A stretch of 29,899 nt of DNA, from assembly GCA_041176025.1 (NCBI GenBank), contig JBEDDY010000166.1, positions 1-29,899 of the forward strand, given 5' to 3'. The position numbers and the translations under genes are program-made. Of this stretch, positions 11,771 through 20,777 are shown piece by piece. The notes beneath the pieces were generated by a model. The model made no database searches and was not told where the DNA came from. It saw nothing but the letters and a program-made list of their open reading frames with translations. Source of the stretch: Actinomycetota bacterium. GTDB lineage: Bacteria; Actinomycetota; Acidimicrobiia; Acidimicrobiales; Ilumatobacteraceae. Every line of letters starts with the position of its first letter. The first letter of the stretch is position 1.

Positions 11771-12502
11771 TCAGTGCGTCGCTGCCGCGACGATCGCGCT
11801 CGCCCCCGAGGCGAACATCAACCCGAGCACCAAGCGCCGGAAACGCTCTCCCCTGACCGCCGGTGCCACGCGCGAACCCAGCCACTGGGTCACCAGCACC
11901 ACGGGAACCGACACAAGCGCGGCAAGTGCAGCATCGTGCCGGACCTTCCCGGCCACCACGAACATCGACAGTGACACCGCGTTCGAGTAGACGAACACCC
12001 GCGAGATGGTTCCCCTGAACACGTGCGGTTCGTATCCCCTTGCCTGGAACAGAAAGACGAGAGGCGGCCCGTTCGTGGACACAGACGTGTTCAGGACACC
12101 ACTGACAGCCCCCAGGACGAATTCGTCCCTGCGCGACGCGTGATCGAGGGTGAACCCGCGCACCAACAGGATCGCGGCGATGATGACGACCACACCGACC
12201 GCGAGACGCAGCTGGTTTGCGGTGCCGATGACGAACACCACCAACCCGAGTGGCATGCCGACACAGGCGCCGGCGAACACCCTGTGCGCAACGGACGTGT
12301 CGCAGTGTTCACGCTCCGACCATGCCTGCGCAGCGGTCGTGTACATCGCCAGCAACGTGGCGATGATGACACCCTCCTGCGGGGCGAGAAACAGCGAGAG
12401 GAGCGGAACGACGATCAACCCGAAACCGAACCCGGAGATCTTCTGCACGAATGCCGCGCAACCGACGACCGCCATCACCCCGGCGAACTGCAGGAGGGTC
12501 AA
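11771..12502 (-). CDS. TauE/SafE family (sulfite exporter-like) membrane protein
   Basis: VQKISGFGFGLIVVP and GVLNTSVSTNGPP internal repeat motifs, about 8 hydrophobic segments. TTG 12502 start is inferred (2 nt after the upstream stop); GTG/ATG a few codons later is also possible. Confidence 0.85.
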   Translation of the reverse strand: MTLLQFAGVMAVVGCAAFVQKISGFGFGLIVVPLLSLFLAPQEGVIIATLLAMYTTAAQAWSEREHCDTSVAHRVFAGACVGMPLGLVVFVIGTANQLRLAVGVVVIIAAILLVRGFTLDHASRRDEFVLGAVSGVLNTSVSTNGPPLVFLFQARGYEPHVFRGTISRVFVYSNAVSLSMFVVAGKVRHDAALAALVSVPVVLVTQWLGSRVAPAVRGERFRRLVLGLMFASGASAIVAAATH

Positions 12503-12504
12503 TG

Positions 12505-13854
12505 TCAGGCACCCAGCGAGTCGATTGCGTCCGCGAACACCTGCGTGTGCAGGTCCACGTCTGCCTCCCCGTGGGACGGGCAGAACAACGCCATGTTGTG
12601 GAACGGTGTGAGGAGTATCCCCCGGTTCAGCGCGAACAGGTGCATGTACGAATCCAGTTCGGCGTCCGATGCCGCCGCCGCGTCCGCTCCGTTGCGGGGA
12701 ACGGGACAGAACCAGTACTCGGCGCGGGCGCCGAGCTGCTGGACATGCCACTGCAGGCCCTTGTTCTCGTACGCGGCGCGGACACCCTCGGTCCATCTCG
12801 TCGCCAACGGCACCATCACCGCAAAATCCTCCACGCGAAGATTCGAGGAGAGCGTTGCCCGGATCGCCGCCATGGCGAGGGCGTTGCCGGTGAGTGTGCC
12901 GCCGACACCGGACACGTCCACCGAGTCCCCCGCCATCAATGACTCGAGTCGGTGCGCCACTTCGCCGGACATCCCGTAGACGGCGGCGGGCATTCCCCCT
13001 GCTATCGGTTTGCCGATGACGAACATGTCCGGATCTAGGTTCCATTCGCGGGTGCAACCGCCCGGCCCCGCACAGATGGTGTGGGTCTCGTCGATCACGA
13101 GCAGAACCCCGTGGCGTCTGGTCACGTCCCGTACCGCATCGAGATAGCCGTCATCGGGCAGGACTATCCCGATGTTCGTGAGGGCGGGCTCCATCAGCAG
13201 ACATGCGACGTCGCCGTGCGACAGTGCCGCTTCCAGCGCATCGATGTCGTTGAACGGAACGACCCGTGTCGTCGTTGCCACATTGAAAGCCGGCCCGATG
13301 GCACCCGGCCGCGGCACGACACGGCCGCTCCGGTCGAGCACCGCGAGTGTCTCGTCCACGGTGCCGTGGTAGCACCAATCCATGACGGCGATCTTCGGAC
13401 GTCCCGTGATGGCACGCGCAAAACGGAGAACGAACCGGTTCGCATCGGTTGCGGTCATGGCGAACTGCCACTTCGGCAGGCCGAAACGGCGCGTCAGCTC
13501 ACCGGCCACCCAGATCGCGTCCTCGTTCGGCAACATCGTGGTGATGCCCCGTGATGCGCGGTCGTGCAGCGCATCTGCCACACCCGTCAGCCCGTGACCG
13601 GTCATGGCCCCGGTGTCACCGAGACAGAAATCAACGTATTCGTGCCCGTCGACATCAGTGAAGCGGGCCCCACGGGCATCCTCGAAGAACAGCGGGAACT
13701 CCCCCGGCCACCTTGCCATCCATGGCATGGGCACGCCCGACAACAGGCCCTCCCGGGCGCTACGGGCCAGCCCCGCCGAACGCGGATGGAGACGGCCGAA
13801 GAGGGAGAGCTCCTCGGCATGACGGGATGCGAGAGTGGCGCGGTTGATGTTCAT
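12505..13854 (-). CDS. Class III PLP aminotransferase, HemL/GSA-aminomutase-like paralog
   Basis: DVDGHEYVDF, CYHG, LMEP, LLVIDETHT, PLP-lysine GKPIAGGMP, GGTLTGN. ATG 13854 start; TATGGT lies 14 nt upstream. Confidence 0.88.
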   Translation of the reverse strand: MNINRATLASRHAEELSLFGRLHPRSAGLARSAREGLLSGVPMPWMARWPGEFPLFFEDARGARFTDVDGHEYVDFCLGDTGAMTGHGLTGVADALHDRASRGITTMLPNEDAIWVAGELTRRFGLPKWQFAMTATDANRFVLRFARAITGRPKIAVMDWCYHGTVDETLAVLDRSGRVVPRPGAIGPAFNVATTTRVVPFNDIDALEAALSHGDVACLLMEPALTNIGIVLPDDGYLDAVRDVTRRHGVLLVIDETHTICAGPGGCTREWNLDPDMFVIGKPIAGGMPAAVYGMSGEVAHRLESLMAGDSVDVSGVGGTLTGNALAMAAIRATLSSNLRVEDFAVMVPLATRWTEGVRAAYENKGLQWHVQQLGARAEYWFCPVPRNGADAAAASDAELDSYMHLFALNRGILLTPFHNMALFCPSHGEADVDLHTQVFADAIDSLGA

Positions 13855-13937
13855 GAGCTCGACGTTCCACCATAGGTTTCGTGGACGGACGGGCCGAGGA
13901 TTCCCAATGAAGTCAGGCCTCTCGGCTTTACATTTCG

Positions 13938-13943
13938 TACACT
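13938..13943 (+). promoter_or_regulatory. -10 element TACACT, leaderless start of the carbamoylase/Xdh operon
   Basis: TANNNT hexamer 7 nt upstream of GTG 13951. Confidence 0.65.
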
Positions 13944-13950
13944 TTGACCC

Positions 13951-15207
13951 GTGAGCACCGACCGGCACCCCTTGGACCTCCGGGTCAACGGAGAGCGGCT
14001 GATGGCGCGTCTCGATGCTCTTGCCGAGGTGGGGGCCATTCCTGGTGGCGGATGTGCGCGTCTCGCCCTGACCGACGATGACAAGACAGGCCGTGACCTC
14101 GTGGTGTCCTGGATGAGGGACCTGGGGCTCGACGTCACCGTCGACGTCGTCGGCAACGTGGTGGGGACATGGAACGTGGGCACCGGGTCTCCCGTGATGA
14201 CCGGCTCACACATCGACACTGTCCGGACCGGCGGCAGGTACGACGGCAACTACGGGGTGCTCGCGGGGCTCGAGGTCATCCAGACCGTCCAGGAGTCAGG
14301 TTTCGTCCCGCTTCGGCCGCTCGCCGTCGCGTTCTTCACGAACGAGGAAGGGGCTCGTTTTGCCCCCGACATGATGGGCTCACTCGCCTTTGTCGGCGGG
14401 AGCCCCGTCGAGACGGTTCTCGACACCGTCGGCATCGACGGCGCCCGTGTGGGGGACGAACTGGAGCGAATCGGGTATTCCGGCTCCATTCCGTGCCCCC
14501 AGATCGCGCCGCATGCCTTCGTCGAGCTGCACATCGAGCAGGGACCGGTGCTCGAACAGCAGGACACGACGATCGGTGTCGTCACGGGTGTGCAGGGAAT
14601 CAGCTGGCAGGAAGTGACCATCACGGGACAGTCGAACCACGCGGGCACGACCCCCATGAACCTCCGTCACGATCCCGCCTACGCGGCCTCGAACATCGCG
14701 GTGTTCCTCCGCGAACTTGCACGCGGGTTCGGCGGCCACCAGGTGTGCACGGTCGGGAAGATCGACATGCACCCGAATCTGATCAACGTTGTCCCGGCAT
14801 CGGCCACCCTCACCCTGGACGTCCGGAACACCGACGAGGAACTGCTCAGGGACGCCGAACGGCAGATTGCCGCCCATCTGCGGAAACTTGCCGCCGACGA
14901 GGGCGTCTCGATCACCACCAGGACACTCGCGAGATTCGAGCCCGTCGACTTCGACTCCTCGGTGATCTCGCTCATCGAGGGCGTCGCATCGGACCACGGG
15001 TTGAGCCACATGCGGATGCCGAGCGGCGCGGGTCACGATGCACAGATGCTGGCGCGGGTCTGCCCGGCCGCAATGATCTTCGTCCCCAGCCACAAGGGCA
15101 TCAGCCACAACCCAGCCGAGCACACCGACGCCCACCAACTCGTCGCAGGCTGCAACGTCCTGCTCCACGCTCTTCTCTCACTCACCCACCCGGAGGTAGG
15201 CCAATGA
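13951..15207 (+). CDS. M20 Zn-dependent N-carbamoyl-amino acid hydrolase (beta-ureidopropionase/L-carbamoylase/allantoate amidohydrolase family)
   Basis: GSHIDTV, GRYDGNYGV, FTNEEGARF, ELHIEQGP, GQSNHAGTTPM, SGAGHDA, GISHNPAE. Confidence 0.93.
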   Translation: MSTDRHPLDLRVNGERLMARLDALAEVGAIPGGGCARLALTDDDKTGRDLVVSWMRDLGLDVTVDVVGNVVGTWNVGTGSPVMTGSHIDTVRTGGRYDGNYGVLAGLEVIQTVQESGFVPLRPLAVAFFTNEEGARFAPDMMGSLAFVGGSPVETVLDTVGIDGARVGDELERIGYSGSIPCPQIAPHAFVELHIEQGPVLEQQDTTIGVVTGVQGISWQEVTITGQSNHAGTTPMNLRHDPAYAASNIAVFLRELARGFGGHQVCTVGKIDMHPNLINVVPASATLTLDVRNTDEELLRDAERQIAAHLRKLAADEGVSITTRTLARFEPVDFDSSVISLIEGVASDHGLSHMRMPSGAGHDAQMLARVCPAAMIFVPSHKGISHNPAEHTDAHQLVAGCNVLLHALLSLTHPEVGQ

Positions 15208-16127
15208 GTCGCATCATCACCGTCGGCGCGGCACAGCTCGGGCCGATCCAGAAGGAGCATTCACGCGAGAGCGTGGTGCAACGCTTGATCTCCCTCCTCC
15301 GGCAGGGGGCATCAGCCGGTTGCGACCTGGTGGTGTTCCCCGAGCTGGCGCTGACCACCTTCTTTCCCCGTTGGTTCGTCGAGGACATCACCACTGCTGA
15401 CCACTGGTACGAGCGGGAGATGCCGTCACCAGCCACGCAGCCACTGTTCGACACGGCGCGGGACCTGGGTGTCGGCTTCTGCCTCGGGTACGCCGAACTC
15501 ACCGATGACGGCCACAGGTTCAACACACAGATCCTGGTGGAAAAGGACGGGAGTGTCGTCGCCAGGTACCGCAAGGTCCACATTCCCGGCCACGAGCATC
15601 ACGAGCCGGACCGGCCTTTCCAGCACGCCGAGCGCTATTACTTCGAGCCGTCCATGGAGGGATTCGGGGTGTGGAAAGCATTCGGTGGCCGCATCGGAAT
15701 GATGATCTGCAACGACCGGAGGTGGCCCGAGACATACCGTGTGATGGGCCTGAAGGGCGTGGAGATGATCCTCTGCGGCTACAACACGCCGATCCACTAC
15801 GTTCCCGACCCGAGCCAGGACATCCTGCAGGGTTTCCACAACGCGCTCGTGATGCAGTCGGGTGCGTACCAGAACGGCACGTGGGTGGTCGGCGTCGCGA
15901 AGGGCGGTGTCGAGGAAGGTGTCGACAGCCTGGGGCAGTCCATGATCGTCGCGCCGTCCGGCCAGATCGTCGCGCAGGCACTGACCACCGATGACGAACT
16001 GATTTTCGCACGTTGCGACCTTGACTGGTGCGCACGGTACAAGGGCACCCTCTTCGATTTCGACCGCTACCGCCGTCCCGAGGTCTACGGCAACATCACC
16101 GCACAACGCGGAGTCGTCCTGGACTGA
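15204..16127 (+). CDS. N-carbamoyl-D-amino acid amidohydrolase (nitrilase superfamily)
   Basis: VVFPELALTTFFPRW, YRKVHIPGH, ICNDRRWPE (Glu-Lys-Cys triad), GYNTP, QSGAYQN, all typical of D-carbamoylase. ATGA overlap with the previous gene. Confidence 0.88.
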   Translation: MSRIITVGAAQLGPIQKEHSRESVVQRLISLLRQGASAGCDLVVFPELALTTFFPRWFVEDITTADHWYEREMPSPATQPLFDTARDLGVGFCLGYAELTDDGHRFNTQILVEKDGSVVARYRKVHIPGHEHHEPDRPFQHAERYYFEPSMEGFGVWKAFGGRIGMMICNDRRWPETYRVMGLKGVEMILCGYNTPIHYVPDPSQDILQGFHNALVMQSGAYQNGTWVVGVAKGGVEEGVDSLGQSMIVAPSGQIVAQALTTDDELIFARCDLDWCARYKGTLFDFDRYRRPEVYGNITAQRGVVLD

Positions 16128-16128
16128 C

Positions 16129-17190
16129 ATGTCGACCGTCACGAATGGCATGGTGTGTTCGCATCACCACCTGTACTCTGCACTCGCGCGGGGGATGCCC
16201 GCTCCTCCACTGACCCCGACATCGTTCCTCTCGGTGCTCGAACAGGTGTGGTGGCGACTCGACACGGCGCTTGATCTCGACATCATCTACTGGTCCGCGG
16301 CCCTGGGTGCGGCCGAGGCATTGATGAACGGCACGACGGCGGTCATCGACCACCACGAGTCGCCCAATGCCATCGAGGGCAGTCTCGACGTCATCAGGGA
16401 TGCCTGCGACATGATCGGTGTCCGTTCGAACCTGTCCTACGGCGTGACGGACCGGTGGAATTCGGGGGCACTCTCCCCGACCGTCGAACCATCGGGGCGC
16501 ATGACCGACGCCGCCCGACGGGGCCTGCGCGAGAACGAAAGATTCCTGCGCAGCGGTGGGCGCGGGATGGTCGGCGTCCATGCGGCCTTCACGTGCACCG
16601 ACGAGACACTCGAGCACGCAGCGGGACTCGCAGCGGAACTCGAGACAGGGGTCCACATACACGTGGCAGAGGGACCGGAAGACCGCGATGCGGGCCGGAG
16701 GCTCGAGCACCTCTCCGGCGACGATTGGCTGCTCGTCCACTGCGTCCATCTCGACAGGCCGCTCAGGGGAACGATCGCCCACAACCCCCGGTCCAACATG
16801 AACAACTCCGTCGGGTATGCACACCCGGCGCGGCGTGCGAACACCGTAGTTCTCGGCACCGACGGCATCGGTGCAGACATGCTCGAGGAGGCGCGTCTCG
16901 CATACGTCCGGCTGCGCGAGTCCGACGTCACTGCATCCCCCGACACCGCATGGTCCTGGCTGTCGAACGGCGAGAAGTTCTTCCCCGAGGTTGCCAACGA
17001 CTCGGTGGAATGGTCCTACGACCACTCGGAGAGCGCCTGGCATGTCGCCTTCACACCGGGCGTGCGTGCGGTCAACGTCTCCGTCGACGGAGTTCAGGTG
17101 GTTCGCGACGGACAACCGCTCCATTTCGACCTGCAGGAGATCCGCACGAAAGCGGCCGAGGCCGCCACCCGACTTCATTCCCGATTGTGA
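16129..17190 (+). CDS. SsnA-like metal-dependent amidohydrolase (compact form)
   Basis: GMVCSHHHLYSALARG (SsnA-type HxH), GTTAVIDHH, GVHAAF, HIHVAE, VHCVH, HNPRSNMNNSVG, LGTDG. Confidence 0.82.
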   Translation: MSTVTNGMVCSHHHLYSALARGMPAPPLTPTSFLSVLEQVWWRLDTALDLDIIYWSAALGAAEALMNGTTAVIDHHESPNAIEGSLDVIRDACDMIGVRSNLSYGVTDRWNSGALSPTVEPSGRMTDAARRGLRENERFLRSGGRGMVGVHAAFTCTDETLEHAAGLAAELETGVHIHVAEGPEDRDAGRRLEHLSGDDWLLVHCVHLDRPLRGTIAHNPRSNMNNSVGYAHPARRANTVVLGTDGIGADMLEEARLAYVRLRESDVTASPDTAWSWLSNGEKFFPEVANDSVEWSYDHSESAWHVAFTPGVRAVNVSVDGVQVVRDGQPLHFDLQEIRTKAAEAATRLHSRL

Positions 17191-17197
17191 GCCACGC

Positions 17198-18034
17198 ATG
17201 CCAGTTCTGACACCCACCACCATCTCCGACGCTGCGGCCTCGCTCGCCGCGCATCCCGAGGCACAGATTCTCAGCGGCGGCACCGACTTCATGGTCGAGG
17301 TCAACTTCAACCACCGCAAGCCCTCGACAGTCGTCGCCCTCGGCGGGATCGAGGAACTGCGCCGTTGGAGCAACGACGGACACTCCGTTTTCATCGGCGC
17401 CGGGGTCACTTGGCAGGACATCGAGACGGGACCCATCGCGTCAGTCCTCCCCGCACTGGCCGAGGCGGCGCGAACGGTCGGTTCTCCGCAGATCCGTGCC
17501 GCCGGCACCATCGGCGGCAACCTCGGCACGTGCTCACCCGCAGGCGACGGCCTGCCGGTCCTCTCCGCACTCGAGTGCACCGTCCACCTGGTCTCGCCGC
17601 GCGGGGAACGCAGTCTTGCCTTCACGGAGTTCATGGTCGGACCGAAGCGCAACGCCAGGGCCGCGGACGAGATCATCACCGGCGTCACGGTGCCCGTGCC
17701 GAACGGCTACCAGGGCTACGCAAAGGTCGGCGTCCGCAACGCGATGGTGATCTCCATTGCGAGCGCGTGTCTCGTCATCCACGACAACAAGGTCCGCGTC
17801 GGGTTGGGCTCGGTGGGTCCCACGATCATCCGTCCGACGGCAGCAGAGCAATGGCTCGACCAACTGCAGGCGGTACCAGGGCGAGCCGTGTCCCCGGCAG
17901 TTGCCTCAGAGTTCGGGCGCCGCGTTGCTGATGAAGCCCGTCCCATCGACGACCACAGGTCGACCGCCGCGTACCGCCGTCACGCAATTTCCGTCATCAC
18001 ACGCCGACTTCTCGAACGGAGCGCACAGTCATGA
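17198..18034 (+). CDS. Xanthine dehydrogenase family FAD-binding subunit
   Basis: SGGTDF, IGAGVT, VGSPQIRAAGTIGGN, SPAGD, PIDDHRSTAAYR. Confidence 0.92.
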   Translation: MPVLTPTTISDAAASLAAHPEAQILSGGTDFMVEVNFNHRKPSTVVALGGIEELRRWSNDGHSVFIGAGVTWQDIETGPIASVLPALAEAARTVGSPQIRAAGTIGGNLGTCSPAGDGLPVLSALECTVHLVSPRGERSLAFTEFMVGPKRNARAADEIITGVTVPVPNGYQGYAKVGVRNAMVISIASACLVIHDNKVRVGLGSVGPTIIRPTAAEQWLDQLQAVPGRAVSPAVASEFGRRVADEARPIDDHRSTAAYRRHAISVITRRLLERSAQS

Positions 18035-18519
18035 GCAACAACGAGATCTACACACTCACCGTGAACGGGGAGACACGGGAGGTCAGGGACTCCTGGGTCG
18101 GCGAGAGCCTTCTCTACGTGCTGCGCGAACGACTGGGTCTCCCGGGCTCGAAGGGTGCCTGCGAACAGGGCGAATGCGGCAGTTGCACCGTCGTCATCGA
18201 CAACCGGGCGGTCTGCAGCTGTCTCGTCCTCGCGGCGTCCGCAGTCGGCAGGGACATCGCAACCGTCGAGGGTCTGAACCCCGATGGCTCCCTGACCGAC
18301 GTCCAGCAGGCCTTCATCGACGAGGGTGCCGTCCAGTGCGGCTTCTGCACACCCGGGCTCGTGGTGGCCGTGCACGGGCTTCTCGAACGCAATCCCCGAC
18401 CGAACGAACTCGAGGTGAAGGAAGCCCTGTCGGGGAACATCTGCCGGTGCACGGGGTACGGGCGCATCTTCGCGGCGGTCGACAAGGTGGTCGCGGACCG
18501 GAACGGGGGCACACGATGA
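18031..18519 (+). CDS. Xanthine dehydrogenase family 2x[2Fe-2S] subunit
   Basis: GACEQGECGSC, VCSC, QCGFCTPG, GNICRCTGY. Confidence 0.95.
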   Translation: MSNNEIYTLTVNGETREVRDSWVGESLLYVLRERLGLPGSKGACEQGECGSCTVVIDNRAVCSCLVLAASAVGRDIATVEGLNPDGSLTDVQQAFIDEGAVQCGFCTPGLVVAVHGLLERNPRPNELEVKEALSGNICRCTGYGRIFAAVDKVVADRNGGTR

Positions 18520-20777
18520 GTTCGGTCACCACACGCAGGGACACACTCGGCGCGAACGCGTTGCGACCTGACGGAGCAGCGAAGGTCCGTGGTGAGTTCG
18601 GCTTCACGGGCGATCTGTGGCATGACGGCATGCTCTGGGGTGCGACACTGCGTTCACCCCACCCCCATGCCCGCATCGTCTCCATCGACACCACACCGGC
18701 GCTGCGCATTCCCGGCGTCACTGCCGTCGTGACCGCCGAGGACGTCCCGGGACAGATGAACTACGGCCTCATCGCGGAGGACCAACCTGTTTTCGCGTCG
18801 GACATCGTGCGCTACATGGGCGAGCCCGTCGCTGCGGTGGCCGCCGACCACCCGGAGACCTGTCGTCGTGCGCTCGCCGCGATCGCCGTCGAATACGAGG
18901 TGCTGACCCCACTGTGGGACCCCGCGAAGGCGATCGACGGGAGTGCAGAACCGATCCATCCCGACGGGAACGTCTTCAGGACACAGAAGATCATCCATGG
19001 CGACCCGTCCGTGCGTGGCGACGTCACGGTGGAGGGTGAGTACGTCATCGGAATGCAGGACCAGGCCTTCCTCGGCACGGAAGCCGCTCTTGCAATCCCC
19101 GATCACGACGGCGGTGGCGTCGAGGTCTACGTGGCGACCCAGTGGCTGCACGAGGACCAGAAGCAAATGGCGAAATGCCTCGGGCTCCCGGTCGACAAGG
19201 TGCGACTGACACTCGGCGGAGTGGGTGGTGCATTCGGTGGGCGCGAGGACCTCAGCCTGCAGGTTCACACGGCCCTTCTCGCGCTCCACACCGGGCGACC
19301 GGTGAAGATGCAGTACGGCCGCGAGGAGTCCTTCTTCGGCCACATCCACAGGCACCCCGCGACGGTGTGGATGAGGCACCATGCACGACGGGACGGCACC
19401 ATCGTGAACATCGAGGCACGGTTCGTGTTCGACGGAGGCGCCTACGCCTCCACATCGTCAGCGGTGCTGCTGAACGGGATCACCCACACACAGGGTCCCT
19501 ACAAGTGCCCCAACGCCTCGGTGACCGGATGGGCCGTGCGCACCAACAATCCCCCGTGCGGCGCCATGCGGGGTTTCGGCGTCGTGCAGGCGTGTTACGC
19601 ACACGAGAGCCAGATGGACAAGCTGGCGGCCGCGCTCGGCATGTCACCCGTCGACATCAGACTGAAGAACGCCATGGAAACCGGGGACACCCTCATCACG
19701 GGACAGGTGATGGACAGTGTCGCACCGGTGACGGAATGCATCAGGCAGACCGACGCCATCCCGTTGCCGGCCGAGATGGCCGCGGATCCCGATGAACTCG
19801 AGTTGCCGGGCGGATCGGGACTCACCAGCGACCGACGCCACATCAAGCGCGGCGTCGGCTGGGGTGTGAGCATCAAGAACATCATGTACAGCGAGGGTTT
19901 CGACGATTACTCCACGGCGCGCTGCAGGCTGGAGGACGGCGTGGTCACCCTCAAGTTCGCAACGAGTGAGGTCGGTCAGGGATTCGTCACGCTGGCACCG
20001 CAGATCGCACGCACCGTCATCGGTGTCGACGACGTCATCATCGACACGATCGACACCGGTGTGGGCTCGGCGGGATCGACGTCGGCCTCGCGACAGACAT
20101 GGATGAGCGGCGGCGCTGTCAAGGGCGCATGCATGCTCGTGCAACAGAGAATCCTGGAGCACGTTGCCCGGACCCATTCGTTGGACGTTGCCACGCTGTC
20201 CATCGAGGGCACCGAGGTCGTCAACTCGGCGGGGACACTGCGCATCAACGTGGTCGAGGCCACGCGAGGCGTGTCGTTCGACGAGACATTCGAGCACCAC
20301 CACAGGTCCACGGAGGACCTCGACGAGAACGGCCAGGGCAACTGTCATGTGGCCTTCGCGTTCGTCGCACACCGCGCTGTCGTCGACGTGGACGAGGAAC
20401 TCGGTCTCGTGAAGGTCGTCCAGATCGCCACCGCACAGGACGTGGGGGTCGCGCTGAACCCGCTGTCCGTCATCGGCCAGATCGAGGGAGGCATCGCACA
20501 GGGTCTCGGCCTCGCAGTGATGGAGGAGATCATCGTGACGGAGGGTCGCGTGCGCAACCCCAGTTTCACCGATTACCTGCTGCCCACCACGCTCGACGCC
20601 CCGGTGGTCGAGGCGCGGATGATCGAGCAGTACGAACCGCTGTCACCACTGGGAGCCAAGGGTGTCGGGGAGCCGCCGTGCATCTCCGTGACACCCGCCA
20701 TCGCGAATGCCATCCGCAACGCGACGGGAAAGGTCATTGACAGGGTCCCGGTGCGTCCGCAGGACATCTGCCTCTAG
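18516..20777 (+). CDS. Xanthine dehydrogenase family molybdopterin-binding subunit (PucD-like)
   Basis: LRSPHPHARI, GGAFGGRE, DGGAY, AMRGFG, SEVGQG, QIEGGIAQG, catalytic Glu in GAKGVGEPP. Confidence 0.93.
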   Translation: MSSVTTRRDTLGANALRPDGAAKVRGEFGFTGDLWHDGMLWGATLRSPHPHARIVSIDTTPALRIPGVTAVVTAEDVPGQMNYGLIAEDQPVFASDIVRYMGEPVAAVAADHPETCRRALAAIAVEYEVLTPLWDPAKAIDGSAEPIHPDGNVFRTQKIIHGDPSVRGDVTVEGEYVIGMQDQAFLGTEAALAIPDHDGGGVEVYVATQWLHEDQKQMAKCLGLPVDKVRLTLGGVGGAFGGREDLSLQVHTALLALHTGRPVKMQYGREESFFGHIHRHPATVWMRHHARRDGTIVNIEARFVFDGGAYASTSSAVLLNGITHTQGPYKCPNASVTGWAVRTNNPPCGAMRGFGVVQACYAHESQMDKLAAALGMSPVDIRLKNAMETGDTLITGQVMDSVAPVTECIRQTDAIPLPAEMAADPDELELPGGSGLTSDRRHIKRGVGWGVSIKNIMYSEGFDDYSTARCRLEDGVVTLKFATSEVGQGFVTLAPQIARTVIGVDDVIIDTIDTGVGSAGSTSASRQTWMSGGAVKGACMLVQQRILEHVARTHSLDVATLSIEGTEVVNSAGTLRINVVEATRGVSFDETFEHHHRSTEDLDENGQGNCHVAFAFVAHRAVVDVDEELGLVKVVQIATAQDVGVALNPLSVIGQIEGGIAQGLGLAVMEEIIVTEGRVRNPSFTDYLLPTTLDAPVVEARMIEQYEPLSPLGAKGVGEPPCISVTPAIANAIRNATGKVIDRVPVRPQDICL

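What the first reader, a model, noticed from the sequence alone, without database searches (positions are those of the whole stretch)
13951..20777. Operon with two different decarbamoylases, an SsnA-like hydrolase and an Xdh-family enzyme: candidate variant purine/ureide catabolic pathway
Seen: six genes in one tightly coupled operon (three ATGA overlaps, gaps of 1 and 7 nt) from one apparent leaderless promoter. They encode an M20 Zn carbamoylase, a nitrilase-fold D-carbamoylase, an SsnA-like amidohydrolase and FAD/FeS/Mo subunits. Established: in the enterobacterial ssnA/hyuA/ygeW/ygeY/ygeX/xdh purine-degradation cluster, ring opening leads through ureidomethyl-hydantoin and 2,3-diureidopropionate, which carries one alpha- and one beta-ureido group. 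M20 enzymes of this family include beta-ureidopropionases, and D-carbamoylases remove alpha-N-carbamoyl groups from D-amino acids. Inference: the two mechanistically unrelated carbamoylases could strip the two ureido groups in place of YgeW/YgeY, giving a variant route in a probably aerobic actinobacterium. The natural substrate of D-carbamoylases is poorly defined, so this context is informative. Caveats: no HyuA-like hydantoinase, YgfK-like reductase or Mo-cofactor maturation gene is in the window, and pyrimidine, hydantoin or other N-heterocycle substrates are equally possible.
Basis: partly seen in the sequence, partly recalled or inferred. Interest (0 to 1): 0.75.

Follow-up and report, generated by a model that had tools for sequence, protein, structure and literature searches.

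The report
Split reductive urate-breakdown operon, actinobacterial variant
This six-gene operon of an oxygen-respiring freshwater actinobacterium (Ilumatobacteraceae) is most likely one half of a re-tooled version of the "reductive" uric-acid breakdown route solved in gut anaerobes in 2025; several enzymes are swapped and two key genes have moved elsewhere in the genome, so it is a new variant of a known pathway, not a new pathway.

Summary
Six tightly coupled genes at 13951-20777 encode an M20 carbamoylase, a true D-carbamoylase homologue, a short SsnA-like amidohydrolase and a PucC/E/D-type xanthine dehydrogenase. A class-III transaminase is divergent upstream.

The reading is supported by comparative genomics; no biochemistry exists.
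- **Missing parts found.** A DOPDH/XdhAC-type Mo enzyme and a luciferase-like (probably F420) reductase lie together on another contig (C201). In deeper Ilumatobacteraceae both sit inside the operon, flanking the SsnA-like gene.
- **Remaining steps seen in relatives.** Some relatives carry a D-hydantoinase, a diaminopropionate ammonia-lyase and an 8-oxoguanine deaminase in the cluster.
- **No oxidative route.** Neither uricase nor OHCU decarboxylase was found.
- **Cofactors and respiration.** CofD (an F420 biosynthesis gene) and cytochrome oxidase are present.
- **Tightest partner.** The D-carbamoylase lies near the SsnA-like gene in 30 of 33 species.

The F420 swap was predicted in print for Chloroflexota (Li et al. 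2025). New here are the nitrilase-fold carbamoylase in place of YgeW/UacY, the N-terminally shortened SsnA, the transaminase and the split layout.

This scan found the same system before on other genomes, including one split case (e1-3028987). Verdict: new variant of a known kind, moderate interest.

The parts
12505..13854 (-). Divergent class-III (PRK07046-type) PLP transaminase, 449 aa. Candidate outlet for the diamino product in place of YgeX; its role is inferred.
   Evidence: PF00202. NF005453 646 bits against a cut-off of 425. The same divergent position is seen in 6 of 33 well-flanked relatives. No diaminopropionate ammonia-lyase was found in this genome.
13855..13950 (.). 96-bp divergent intergenic region, presumably holding both promoters. 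The M20 gene starts at a GTG without a Shine-Dalgarno sequence.
   Evidence: Sequence. The consensus scan found no sigma-70 site. Leaderless transcription is not tested.
13951..15207 (+). M20 Zn amidase of the hydantoinase/carbamoylase family (L-carbamoylase / beta-ureidopropionase / allantoate amidohydrolase group). Predicted to remove one ureido group, most likely the 3-ureido.
   Evidence: TIGR01879 416 bits against 204, and NF006769 454 bits against 452. Closest solved relatives are 5thw/5i4m, L-carbamoylase 3n5f and N-carbamoyl-beta-alanine amidohydrolase 8c46. It lies near the SsnA-like gene in 19 of 33 relatives.
15204..16127 (+). Nitrilase-fold N-carbamoyl-D-amino-acid hydrolase (D-carbamoylase) homologue. 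Predicted to remove the 2-ureido group, which sits on a D-configured alpha carbon.
   Evidence: 397 bits over the full length to solved D-carbamoylases 8i99/6lcg, and 351 bits to 1fo6. The Glu47/Lys124/Cys169 triad and the CNDRRW and GYNTP motifs are present. It lies within 10 kb of the SsnA-like gene in 30 of 33 relatives. dN/dS is 0.03.
16129..17190 (+). Short SsnA-like amidohydrolase, 353 aa, lacking the N-terminal ~52 residues of SsnA. Predicted ring-opening hydrolase for the reduced purine.
   Evidence: NF005540 244 bits; the next family scores 78 bits. It is 33% identical to E. coli SsnA across residues 53-438, with no similarity upstream of the ATG. Conserved residues are H12, H14, H176, H178, E181, H204 and D245. 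The AF2 model has pLDDT 95.8 and the nearest solved fold is isocytosine deaminase 7ww2. Homologues of 353-367 aa are numerous in the protein database, and 576 genome stretches encode a relative.
17198..18034 (+). FAD-binding subunit of a three-subunit xanthine-dehydrogenase-family enzyme (PucC/XdhB-like).
   Evidence: PF00941 + PF03450. Best NCBIfam hits are XdhB-type, below their cut-offs.
18031..18519 (+). [2Fe-2S] subunit (PucE/XdhC-like).
   Evidence: PF01799 + PF00111. NF043084 175 bits against a cut-off of 217.
18516..20777 (+). Molybdopterin subunit, PucD-type xanthine dehydrogenase. Predicted to convert hypoxanthine/xanthine to urate.
   Evidence: TIGR03196 pucD 857 bits against a cut-off of 784. 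The motifs GGRE, HRHP, RGFG and GEPP align with the purine-binding and catalytic residues of xanthine oxidoreductases; the residue mapping is recalled from memory.

Best explanation
The operon is the hydrolytic/oxidative half of an Acidimicrobiia variant of the reductive uric-acid (2,8-dioxopurine, 'yanthine') pathway.

Proposed steps:
1. The PucC/E/D-type dehydrogenase (window) oxidises hypoxanthine/xanthine to urate.
2. The XdhAC/DOPDH-type Mo-FeS enzyme (contig C201) reduces urate to 2,8-dioxopurine.
3. The adjacent luciferase-like oxidoreductase (C201), probably using F420H2, dearomatises it. This replaces YgfK/UacX.
4. The short SsnA-like amidohydrolase (window) opens the ring.
5. The stand-alone D-hydantoinase/dihydropyrimidinase (contig C153) opens the second ring, giving 2,3-diureidopropionate.
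6. [quoted passage not shown] They replace YgeW/UacY and YgeY, so no carbamoyl phosphate and no ATP is gained.
7. The divergent class-III transaminase may dispose of 2,3-diaminopropionate, because no YgeX was found.

What is shown: the gene identities, their linkage and their co-conservation. What is inferred: every substrate, the order of ureido removal, the use of F420, and the transaminase role.
For: - **Gene identities:**
- **The missing pair is in the same genome.** On C201, TIGR03311 scores 821 bits (cut-off 830) and the LLM gene follows directly. The pair is conserved in 5 of 5 genomes that share the split layout, at 83-85% and 91-93% identity.
- **Unsplit layout in relatives.** In L039, L042, L052, L025 and others the order is transaminase | M20 - D-carbamoylase - XdhAC - SsnA-like - LLM - FAD - FeS - Mo. 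In L039 the XdhAC scores 838 bits, above the cut-off.
- **Linkage in 33 well-flanked species loci:** D-carbamoylase 30, LLM 26, XdhAC 22, M20 19, PucCED 16.
- **Remaining canonical steps in relatives.** Diaminopropionate ammonia-lyase scores above its cut-off in L066, L077 and L129. 8-oxoguanine deaminase, which makes urate, is in L077. D-hydantoinase scores above its cut-off next to the SsnA gene in L129, and in the same cluster in L130. In L130 an essentially canonical SsnA (437 bits from a fragment; cut-off 444) sits beside an LLM 71% identical to this genome's.
- **No oxidative route detected.** No uricase or OHCU decarboxylase in this genome or in four to five relatives.
- **Cofactor and respiration.** CofD scores above its cut-off and COX1 is present.
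- **Expression hint.** Short contigs from three freshwater metatranscriptome libraries lie on five of the genes and the 5' part of the sixth.
- **Literature.** The pathway chemistry, the F420/luciferase-family variant noted for Chloroflexota, and the proposed R (D) configuration of the ureido intermediates come from PMC12507026, PMC12990295 and bioRxiv 10.1101/2025.04.24.650524.
Against: - No enzyme of this variant has been assayed.
- The SsnA-like protein fails both SsnA model cut-offs and lacks the N-terminal segment.
- This genome's XdhAC scores just under its family cut-off. It is only 24% identical to E. coli XdhD.
- The active-site signatures published for DOPDH could not be confirmed cleanly.
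- The LLM reaches no named F420 subfamily cut-off.
- The hydantoinase is unlinked here. None lies within 10 kb in any of the 80 Acidimicrobiia loci.
- No YgeX, no NCS2/AzgA purine permease and no guanine deaminase was found with E. coli queries. The genome is 89.8% complete.
- It is unclear how a low-potential urate reduction is driven in an aerobe, or what donates electrons to XdhAC.
- The metatranscriptome contigs could be DNA carry-over.
Confidence: 0.65

Rival explanations
1. The enzyme logic is the same (Mo hydroxylase, flavin/deazaflavin dearomatisation, amidohydrolase ring opening, two decarbamoylations), but the physiological substrate is a different N-heterocycle. Candidates include another oxopurine, a pterin/lumazine or a substituted pyrimidine.
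For: - The SsnA-like and XdhAC proteins are diverged from the characterised enzymes: 33% and 24% identity to the E. coli proteins, and below or at their family cut-offs.
- The nearest solved folds act on pyrimidines, purines and triazines alike.
- No purine permease was found.
Against: - The window enzyme reaches the PucD xanthine-dehydrogenase equivalog cut-off.
- 8-oxoguanine deaminase and diaminopropionate ammonia-lyase occur in relatives' clusters. A canonical SsnA shares the same LLM partner in L130.
- A C3 diamino end product fits a purine core, not a pyrimidine.
Confidence: 0.15
2. The two carbamoylases serve general N-carbamoyl-amino-acid, hydantoin or pyrimidine catabolism. For example, the M20 enzyme could act as a beta-ureidopropionase that supplies beta-alanine to the nearby panBC. 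On this reading they are only syntenic with the Xdh and SsnA genes.
For: - The M20 enzyme is close to a solved N-carbamoyl-beta-alanine amidohydrolase and to L-carbamoylases.
- This lineage has a stand-alone dihydropyrimidinase with no carbamoylase of its own beside it.
- panB and panC lie 6 kb upstream.
- Classical D-carbamoylases work with D-hydantoinases.
Against: - The D-carbamoylase stays beside the XdhAC/SsnA-like/LLM genes in 30 of 33 species, through several rearrangements. This includes layouts that lack the M20 and PucCED genes.
- The operon is translationally coupled.
- Relative G001 has a separate pyrimidine-type cluster with its own CN-hydrolase, only 27% identical to this one.
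Confidence: 0.1
3. A conventional oxidative ureide route: xanthine dehydrogenase makes urate, and the M20 enzyme is an allantoate amidohydrolase (AllC-type) acting after an unrecognised urate oxidase and allantoinase.
For: - The M20 enzyme just passes an NCBIfam 'allantoate amidohydrolase' subfamily cut-off, 454 bits against 452.
- The organism respires oxygen.
Against: - No uricase or OHCU decarboxylase in this genome or its relatives.
- The only allantoinase-like hits are a dihydroorotase and a dihydropyrimidinase.
- This reading leaves the SsnA-like, D-carbamoylase, XdhAC and LLM linkage unexplained.
- The AllC equivalog model scores far below its cut-off, 298 bits against 598.
Confidence: 0.05

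Closest known systems
Reductive uric-acid / 2,8-dioxopurine pathway clusters of E. coli (xdhD-ygfM, ygfK, ssnA, hyuA, ygeW, yqeA, ygeY, ygeX) and Clostridium sporogenes/difficile (PMC12507026; bioRxiv 10.1101/2025.04.24.650524; commentary PMC12990295)
   Same: - An XDH-family Mo enzyme of the FeS+Mo fused type. TIGR03311 is the best family; by my reading that is the clostridial XdhAC type.
- An SsnA-family amidohydrolase.
- A D-hydantoinase in the genome, and in the cluster in some relatives.
- An M20 hydrolase.
- A diaminopropionate ammonia-lyase in some relatives' clusters.
- A conventional xanthine dehydrogenase encoded nearby.
   Different: - YgfK/UacX is replaced by a luciferase-like (probably F420) oxidoreductase.
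- YgeW+YqeA (phosphorolytic, ATP-yielding) or UacY (amidohydrolase fold) is replaced by a nitrilase-fold D-carbamoylase.
- The M20 enzyme belongs to the carbamoylase/AllC branch, not to the YgeY branch (31 bits against a cut-off of 321).
- SsnA lacks its N-terminal ~52 residues.
- No YqeC selenium-cofactor marker was found.
- The host is an aerobe.
- In this genome the genes are split over at least three loci.
F420/'luciferase-family' variant of the SsnA cluster noted bioinformatically for Chloroflexota (Li et al. 2025, PMC12507026, Fig. 3c and Discussion)
   Same: An LLM (PF00296) gene sits next to the SsnA and Xdh genes in place of YgfK/UacX. The inference that F420 reduces 2,8-dioxopurine is the same.
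   Different: - That survey used IPR017700 (TIGR03314). The short Acidimicrobiia proteins score below its cut-off (236 bits against 456), so this clade probably fell outside it.
- The text read here names YgeW/UacY as the ureido-cleaving families it surveyed. It does not mention the D-carbamoylase, the carbamoylase-type M20 or the class-III transaminase.
N-carbamoyl-D-amino-acid hydrolases of Agrobacterium / Nitratireductor (PDB 1erz, 1fo6, 8i99, 6lcg), used with D-hydantoinase in the industrial 'hydantoinase process'
   Same: Full-length match of 340-397 bits. The catalytic Glu-Lys-Cys triad and the CNDRRW carboxylate/carbamoyl-binding motif are the same.
   Different: The characterised enzymes have no established natural substrate and are known for bulky D-amino-acid derivatives. 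Here the gene is embedded in a purine-type catabolic operon, which predicts a small polar substrate (D-2-ureido-3-ureido/aminopropionate).
Bacillus subtilis PucABCDE xanthine dehydrogenase
   Same: Three separate subunits (FAD, 2Fe-2S, Mo). The Mo subunit passes the PucD equivalog cut-off.
   Different: No pucA/pucB-type maturation genes lie in the operon. The FAD and FeS subunits score below the PucC/PucE cut-offs. In B. subtilis the downstream route is oxidative (uricase); that route was not found here.

Membership tests
Reductive urate (2,8-dioxopurine) pathway gene set | A urate-reducing Mo enzyme of the XdhD / XdhAC (DOPDH) type | tested here: inconclusive
   It is not in the window. On contig C201 an 864-aa FeS+Mo protein scores 821 bits on TIGR03311 against a cut-off of 830. 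The orthologue inside the operon of relative L039 scores 838 bits. It is only 24% identical to E. coli XdhD. The published active-site signatures could not be mapped cleanly.
Reductive urate (2,8-dioxopurine) pathway gene set | A dearomatising reductase YgfK or UacX (PydA-like) | tested here: not met
   No YgfK-type gene lies in the window or beside XdhAC. The only E. coli YgfK hit is partial (28% over residues 420-847, contig C49). An LLM-class oxidoreductase occupies that position.
Reductive urate (2,8-dioxopurine) pathway gene set | An SsnA amidohydrolase (NF005540 / TIGR03314) | tested here: not met
   It scores 244 and 236 bits against cut-offs of 444 and 456, and the N-terminal ~52 residues are absent. 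SsnA is still by far the nearest family; the next scores 78 bits. Identity to E. coli SsnA is 33% and the metal and catalytic residues are kept.
Reductive urate (2,8-dioxopurine) pathway gene set | A HyuA-type D-hydantoinase (TIGR02033) | tested here: inconclusive
   The genome holds a partial copy at the end of contig C153. It scores 282 bits over its C-terminal 260 residues (cut-off 393 for the whole protein) and is 44% identical to E. coli HyuA. It scores above the cut-off in 5 of 5 relatives, but unlinked. It lies in the cluster in L129 and L130.
Reductive urate (2,8-dioxopurine) pathway gene set | 2-ureido cleavage by YgeW (+YqeA) or UacY | tested here: not met
   E. coli YgeW gave only a weak hit (26% over 167 residues, contig C140) and YqeA gave none. 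A nitrilase-fold D-carbamoylase is present instead.
Reductive urate (2,8-dioxopurine) pathway gene set | A YgeY peptidase and a YgeX diaminopropionate ammonia-lyase | tested here: not met
   The YgeY models score 31 and 24 bits against cut-offs of 321; the M20 enzyme belongs to another branch. No YgeX homologue was found in this 89.8%-complete genome. It is present above its cut-off in the clusters of L066, L077 and L129.
Reductive urate (2,8-dioxopurine) pathway gene set | Selenium-cofactor trait (SelD with YqeB/YqeC) | tested here: inconclusive
   SelD is present (167 bits against 125, partial) but is paired divergently with SelA, the selenocysteine trait. YqeC was not found. Only a weak XdhC-family hit to YqeB was seen.
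N-carbamoyl-D-amino-acid hydrolase (D-carbamoylase, EC 3.5.1.77) | Nitrilase fold with a Glu-Lys-Cys triad, the Asn/Arg-Arg substrate-binding motif, and full-length similarity to characterised enzymes | tested here: met
   PF00795 166 bits. It scores 397 bits over residues 1-304 to 8i99 and 351 bits to 1fo6. E47, K124, C169, N170 and R172-R173 are present.
N-carbamoyl-D-amino-acid hydrolase (D-carbamoylase, EC 3.5.1.77) | Hydrolysis of N-carbamoyl-D-amino acids | not testable with these tools
   This needs an enzyme assay.
PucD-type xanthine dehydrogenase | The equivalog model TIGR03196, and purine-type active-site residues (equivalents of bovine Glu802, Arg880, Phe914 and Glu1261) | tested here: met
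   It scores 857 bits against a cut-off of 784. The motifs GGRE, HRHP, RGFG and GEPP are aligned. The mapping to bovine numbering is from memory and was not checked against a bovine sequence.
Hydantoinase/carbamoylase-family M20 amidase (TIGR01879) | The family model, the dimerisation domain, and similarity to L-carbamoylase / beta-ureidopropionase / AllC structures | tested here: met
   TIGR01879 416 bits against 204, with PF01546 and PF07687. PDB 3n5f, 8c46 and 1z2l score 235-295 bits. Substrate specificity within the family is not resolved.
F420-dependent LLM oxidoreductases | Membership of a named F420 LLM subfamily, and F420 availability in the cell | tested here: inconclusive
   The best hits are F420 families (Mer NF002619 188 bits against 276; TIGR03841 132 bits against 214), all below their cut-offs. 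CofD is present above its cut-off. The choice between F420 and FMN cannot be settled from sequence here.

The most novel reading that the evidence does not exclude
Nitrilase-fold D-carbamoylases have no established natural substrate. In these bacteria their native job would be to remove the D-configured 2-ureido group of 2,3-diureidopropionate (or of 2-ureido-3-aminopropionate) during purine breakdown. The supposedly 'anaerobic' reductive urate route would then run in abundant oxygen-respiring freshwater Acidimicrobiia. It would be driven by F420H2, would not use the YqeBC selenium cofactor, and would end in a transaminase instead of YgeX.
Probability: 0.4. Interest if true: 0.7.

Novelty: new variant of a known kind. 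Interest (0 to 1): 0.55.

Why it matters
- **Reach of the pathway.** It would extend a pathway described in 2025 as a hallmark of anaerobic gut bacteria to abundant aerobic lake Actinobacteria (the acIV/Ilumatobacteraceae lineage). That implies purines are a nitrogen source processed without uricase in freshwater.
- **Convergent enzymes.** It gives a third, non-homologous solution for cleaving the 2-ureido group (nitrilase fold, against carbamoyltransferase and D-aminoacylase folds). It also gives a second solution for the dearomatising reduction (F420-type LLM).
- **A testable substrate.** It offers a concrete, testable natural substrate for D-carbamoylases. These enzymes are used industrially, but their physiological role is undefined.
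- **Annotation lesson.** The split layout shows that scoring a pathway from one locus underestimates its presence.

Tried and rejected
- **Upstream start for the SsnA-like gene.** I looked for a start that would restore the SsnA N-terminus. The frame is open from 16003, but its translation has no similarity to SsnA residues 1-52. Homologues are likewise 353-367 aa. Rejected.
- **Solved structures.** A PDB sequence search with the SsnA-like protein found nothing at E <= 1e-10.
- **Contexts of distant representatives.** P0146 and P0155 were uninformative: one is a stand-alone gene and the other sits on a 1.9-kb contig.
- **Extra ORFs in 'type B' loci.** The ORFs between the D-carbamoylase and XdhAC genes (283-298, 434-471 and 882 aa) have no Pfam family. 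They look like membrane-anchored or secreted proteins and have no homologue in this genome. I treat them as unrelated insertions.
- **Published DOPDH signatures.** These are F1009V and A1078T/S (Liu et al.) and Glu606 (Li et al.). By motif alignment XdhAC has Leu and Thr at the putative positions, but the PucD-type enzyme also has Ser at the second. The mapping rests on recalled bovine motifs, so the result is ambiguous.
- **Promoter and terminator scan.** Nothing was found at the operon start.
- **Metatranscriptomes.** Only assembled short contigs were available, so they give no 5' ends, strands or expression levels.
- **Pyrimidine-type cluster of G001.** It is not conserved in this genome.
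- **Complex prediction** was not used. XdhAC plus the FAD subunit exceeds the size limit, and no binding claim is made.

Full report
**1. The observation**

The window is a whole 29.9-kb contig (C166) of a 1.87-Mb, 267-contig genome that is 89.8% complete. Relatives are named Ilumatobacteraceae/Acidimicrobiia, mostly from freshwater.

- M20 amidase, 13951-15207
- CN-hydrolase, 15204-16127
- amidohydrolase, 16129-17190
- FAD subunit, 17198-18034
- 2Fe-2S subunit, 18031-18519
- Mo subunit, 18516-20777

There are three ATGA overlaps and gaps of 1 and 7 nt. A class-III transaminase (12505-13854, minus strand) diverges from a 96-bp intergenic region. A convergent FAD oxidase follows 3 nt after the last stop.

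dN/dS against the closest species-level relative is 0.03-0.10. The leaderless-promoter idea could not be tested.

**2. What the proteins are**

- **CN-hydrolase.** It is a genuine D-carbamoylase homologue. It scores 397 bits over its full length to solved N-carbamoyl-D-amino-acid hydrolases. The Glu47/Lys124/Cys169 triad and the CNDRRW motif are present.
- **M20 enzyme.** It belongs to the L-carbamoylase / beta-ureidopropionase / allantoate-amidohydrolase family.
- **Mo subunit.** It passes the PucD xanthine-dehydrogenase equivalog cut-off, 857 bits against 784. It carries the motifs that align with the purine-binding Glu and Arg and the catalytic Glu of xanthine oxidoreductases (the residue mapping is from memory).
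- **Amidohydrolase.** It is SsnA-like but not a model-level SsnA. It scores 244 and 236 bits against cut-offs of 444 and 456.
  - It is 33% identical to E. coli SsnA from residue ~53 to the C-terminus, and the N-terminal ~52 residues are simply absent.
  - This is not a local defect. Homologues of 353-367 aa are numerous, and 576 genome stretches encode relatives.
  - The HxH, HxHxxE, His and Asp positions are conserved.
  - The AF2 model is very confident (pLDDT 95.8). It matches the cytosine/guanine-deaminase-type amidohydrolases, with TM 0.83 to isocytosine deaminase 7ww2.

**3. The missing parts are elsewhere in the genome**

In deeper Ilumatobacteraceae the operon is longer: transaminase | M20 - D-carbamoylase - [869-aa FeS+Mo protein] - SsnA-like - [LLM oxidoreductase] - FAD - FeS - Mo.

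The 869-aa protein passes TIGR03311 ('selenium-dependent xanthine dehydrogenase', 838 bits against 830). By my reading that is the clostridial XdhAC/DOPDH type and not the E. coli XdhD type (TIGR03313).

This genome has both extra genes, adjacent to each other, on contig C201. The XdhAC-type protein is 70% identical to L039's and scores 821 bits on TIGR03311. The LLM is 82% identical to L039's. Five of five other genomes with the six-gene layout keep the same XdhAC-LLM pair with the same flanks. The split is therefore an old, stable rearrangement and not an assembly artefact.

**4. Co-conservation**

Among 33 species-level loci with at least 7 kb upstream and 6 kb downstream, these genes lie within about 10 kb of the SsnA-like gene:

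| Gene | Loci |
|---|---|
| D-carbamoylase | 30 |
| LLM | 26 |
| XdhAC | 22 |
| M20 | 19 |
| PucCED | 16 |
| Transaminase | 6 |

A minimal recurrent layout is D-carbamoylase ... XdhAC - SsnA-like - LLM. The D-carbamoylase is thus the most faithful partner and the most conserved protein (97% identity to L004, dN/dS 0.03).

In a 201-genome sample of the phylum, 10 genomes had a match at E <= 1e-60. These include all four other genomes of the same family, two from other Acidimicrobiia families, and three outside the class. One of those three, G129, is an unpublished genome; only this tally rests on it.

**5. Links to the known pathway**

Li et al. (PMC12507026), Liu et al. (bioRxiv 10.1101/2025.04.24.650524) and Percudani's commentary (PMC12990295) describe the route:
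1. urate to 2,8-dioxopurine (XdhD-YgfM or XdhAC)
2. dearomatisation (YgfK/UacX)
3. ring opening (SsnA)
4. hydantoin opening (HyuA), giving 2,3-diureidopropionate
5. 2-ureido cleavage (YgeW or the D-aminoacylase-like UacY)
6. 3-ureido cleavage (YgeY)
7. diaminopropionate ammonia-lyase (YgeX)

Li et al. also noted an F420 'luciferase-family' gene in place of YgfK in Chloroflexota.

Relatives of this window supply the steps that are missing here:
- L066 and L077 carry a diaminopropionate ammonia-lyase (331 and 312 bits against a cut-off of 276) inside the cluster. L077 also carries an 8-oxoguanine deaminase, which makes urate.
- In another Actinomycetota class (L129) the cluster is DAP ammonia-lyase - XdhAC | D-hydantoinase - SsnA-like - LLM.
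- In L130 an essentially canonical SsnA sits with an LLM 71% identical to this genome's, plus XdhAC, PucCED-type genes and a D-hydantoinase.

This genome has one D-hydantoinase/dihydropyrimidinase, cut by the end of contig C153. In the closest long-contig relative it is a stand-alone gene in the same neighbourhood.

**6. Other genome context**

- No uricase or OHCU decarboxylase in this genome or in four to five relatives.
- CofD is present and a haem-copper oxidase is present.
- SelD exists but is paired with SelA, and YqeC was not found.
- E. coli queries found no YgeX, YqeA, YgfM or NCS2/AzgA permease, and only a weak YgeW hit.
- Short contigs from three freshwater metatranscriptome libraries (three studies, 95-100% identical) lie on five of the genes and on the 5' part of the Mo gene. 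Two of them bridge gene junctions. DNA carry-over cannot be excluded.

**7. Interpretation**

The best reading (about 0.65) is that the operon is the oxidative and hydrolytic half of an F420-type reductive urate pathway whose reductive half lies on C201.

The D configuration proposed for the ureido intermediates (PMC12990295) and the use of a D-aminoacylase homologue in C. difficile (PMC12507026) make a D-carbamoylase a natural hydrolase for the 2-ureido group. The M20 enzyme, close to beta-ureidopropionases, fits the 3-ureido group. That assignment is inference.

The transaminase may replace YgeX. The loci with a transaminase and the loci with the lyase did not overlap in this small sample.

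The rivals are less likely, for the reasons given under Rival explanations. They are another heterocycle as substrate, a general carbamoyl-amino-acid or pyrimidine role for the carbamoylases, and an oxidative ureide route.

**8. Novelty**

The pathway and the F420 swap are in print. What I did not find in the held literature:
- the nitrilase-fold D-carbamoylase
- the carbamoylase-type M20 enzyme
- the shortened SsnA
- the transaminase
- the aerobic freshwater host
- the split layout

The scan itself has reported this system on at least eight other genomes, including one split case. My result was reached before I read those notes, and it agrees with them.

Noticed in passing
L116 / L117 7500-17672 (relative G001, the genome that holds L039): This is a second cluster with the same design logic: MFS - CN-hydrolase (281 aa) - dihydropyrimidinase - aldehyde dehydrogenase - luciferase-like oxidoreductase - ABC transporter. 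It looks like a reductive pyrimidine route in which an LLM (F420?) enzyme stands in for dihydropyrimidine dehydrogenase. It is not conserved in this window's genome.
   Followed up: partly
G000 contig C56:2-1773 (L127): selD (partial, Cys-type) lies divergent from selA, so the genome has the selenocysteine trait. The YqeC selenium-cofactor marker was not found.
   Followed up: partly
L016 4945-7296; L072 1703-3957 and 6644-9292; L058 2241-4064: In the 'minimal' cluster layout, two or three membrane-anchored or secreted proteins with no Pfam family sit between the D-carbamoylase and XdhAC genes. They are 283-298, 434-471 and 882 aa and are related to each other across genomes. They have no homologue in this window's genome.
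   Followed up: partly
The M20 enzyme is close to a solved N-carbamoyl-beta-alanine amidohydrolase, and this lineage has a stand-alone dihydropyrimidinase. A side role in beta-alanine supply is therefore conceivable. Not tested.
   Followed up: no
L044 9325-13181 (minus strand): A homologue of the N-terminal 400 residues of E. coli YgfK (38% identity) lies next to a second FeS/Mo pair, about 6 kb from the SsnA-like gene.
   Followed up: no
window 11771-13854: The class-III transaminase is present between the TauE-like gene and the M20 gene in this window and in some relatives (L011, L015). It is absent at the same spot in others that are otherwise syntenic (L001-L003), so the gene has been gained or lost repeatedly.
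   Followed up: partly
record titles (L033, L037, L050, L060): Several public MAGs that carry this Acidimicrobiia cluster are labelled 'uncultured Bifidobacterium sp.'. These are probably taxonomic mislabels in the records.
   Followed up: no
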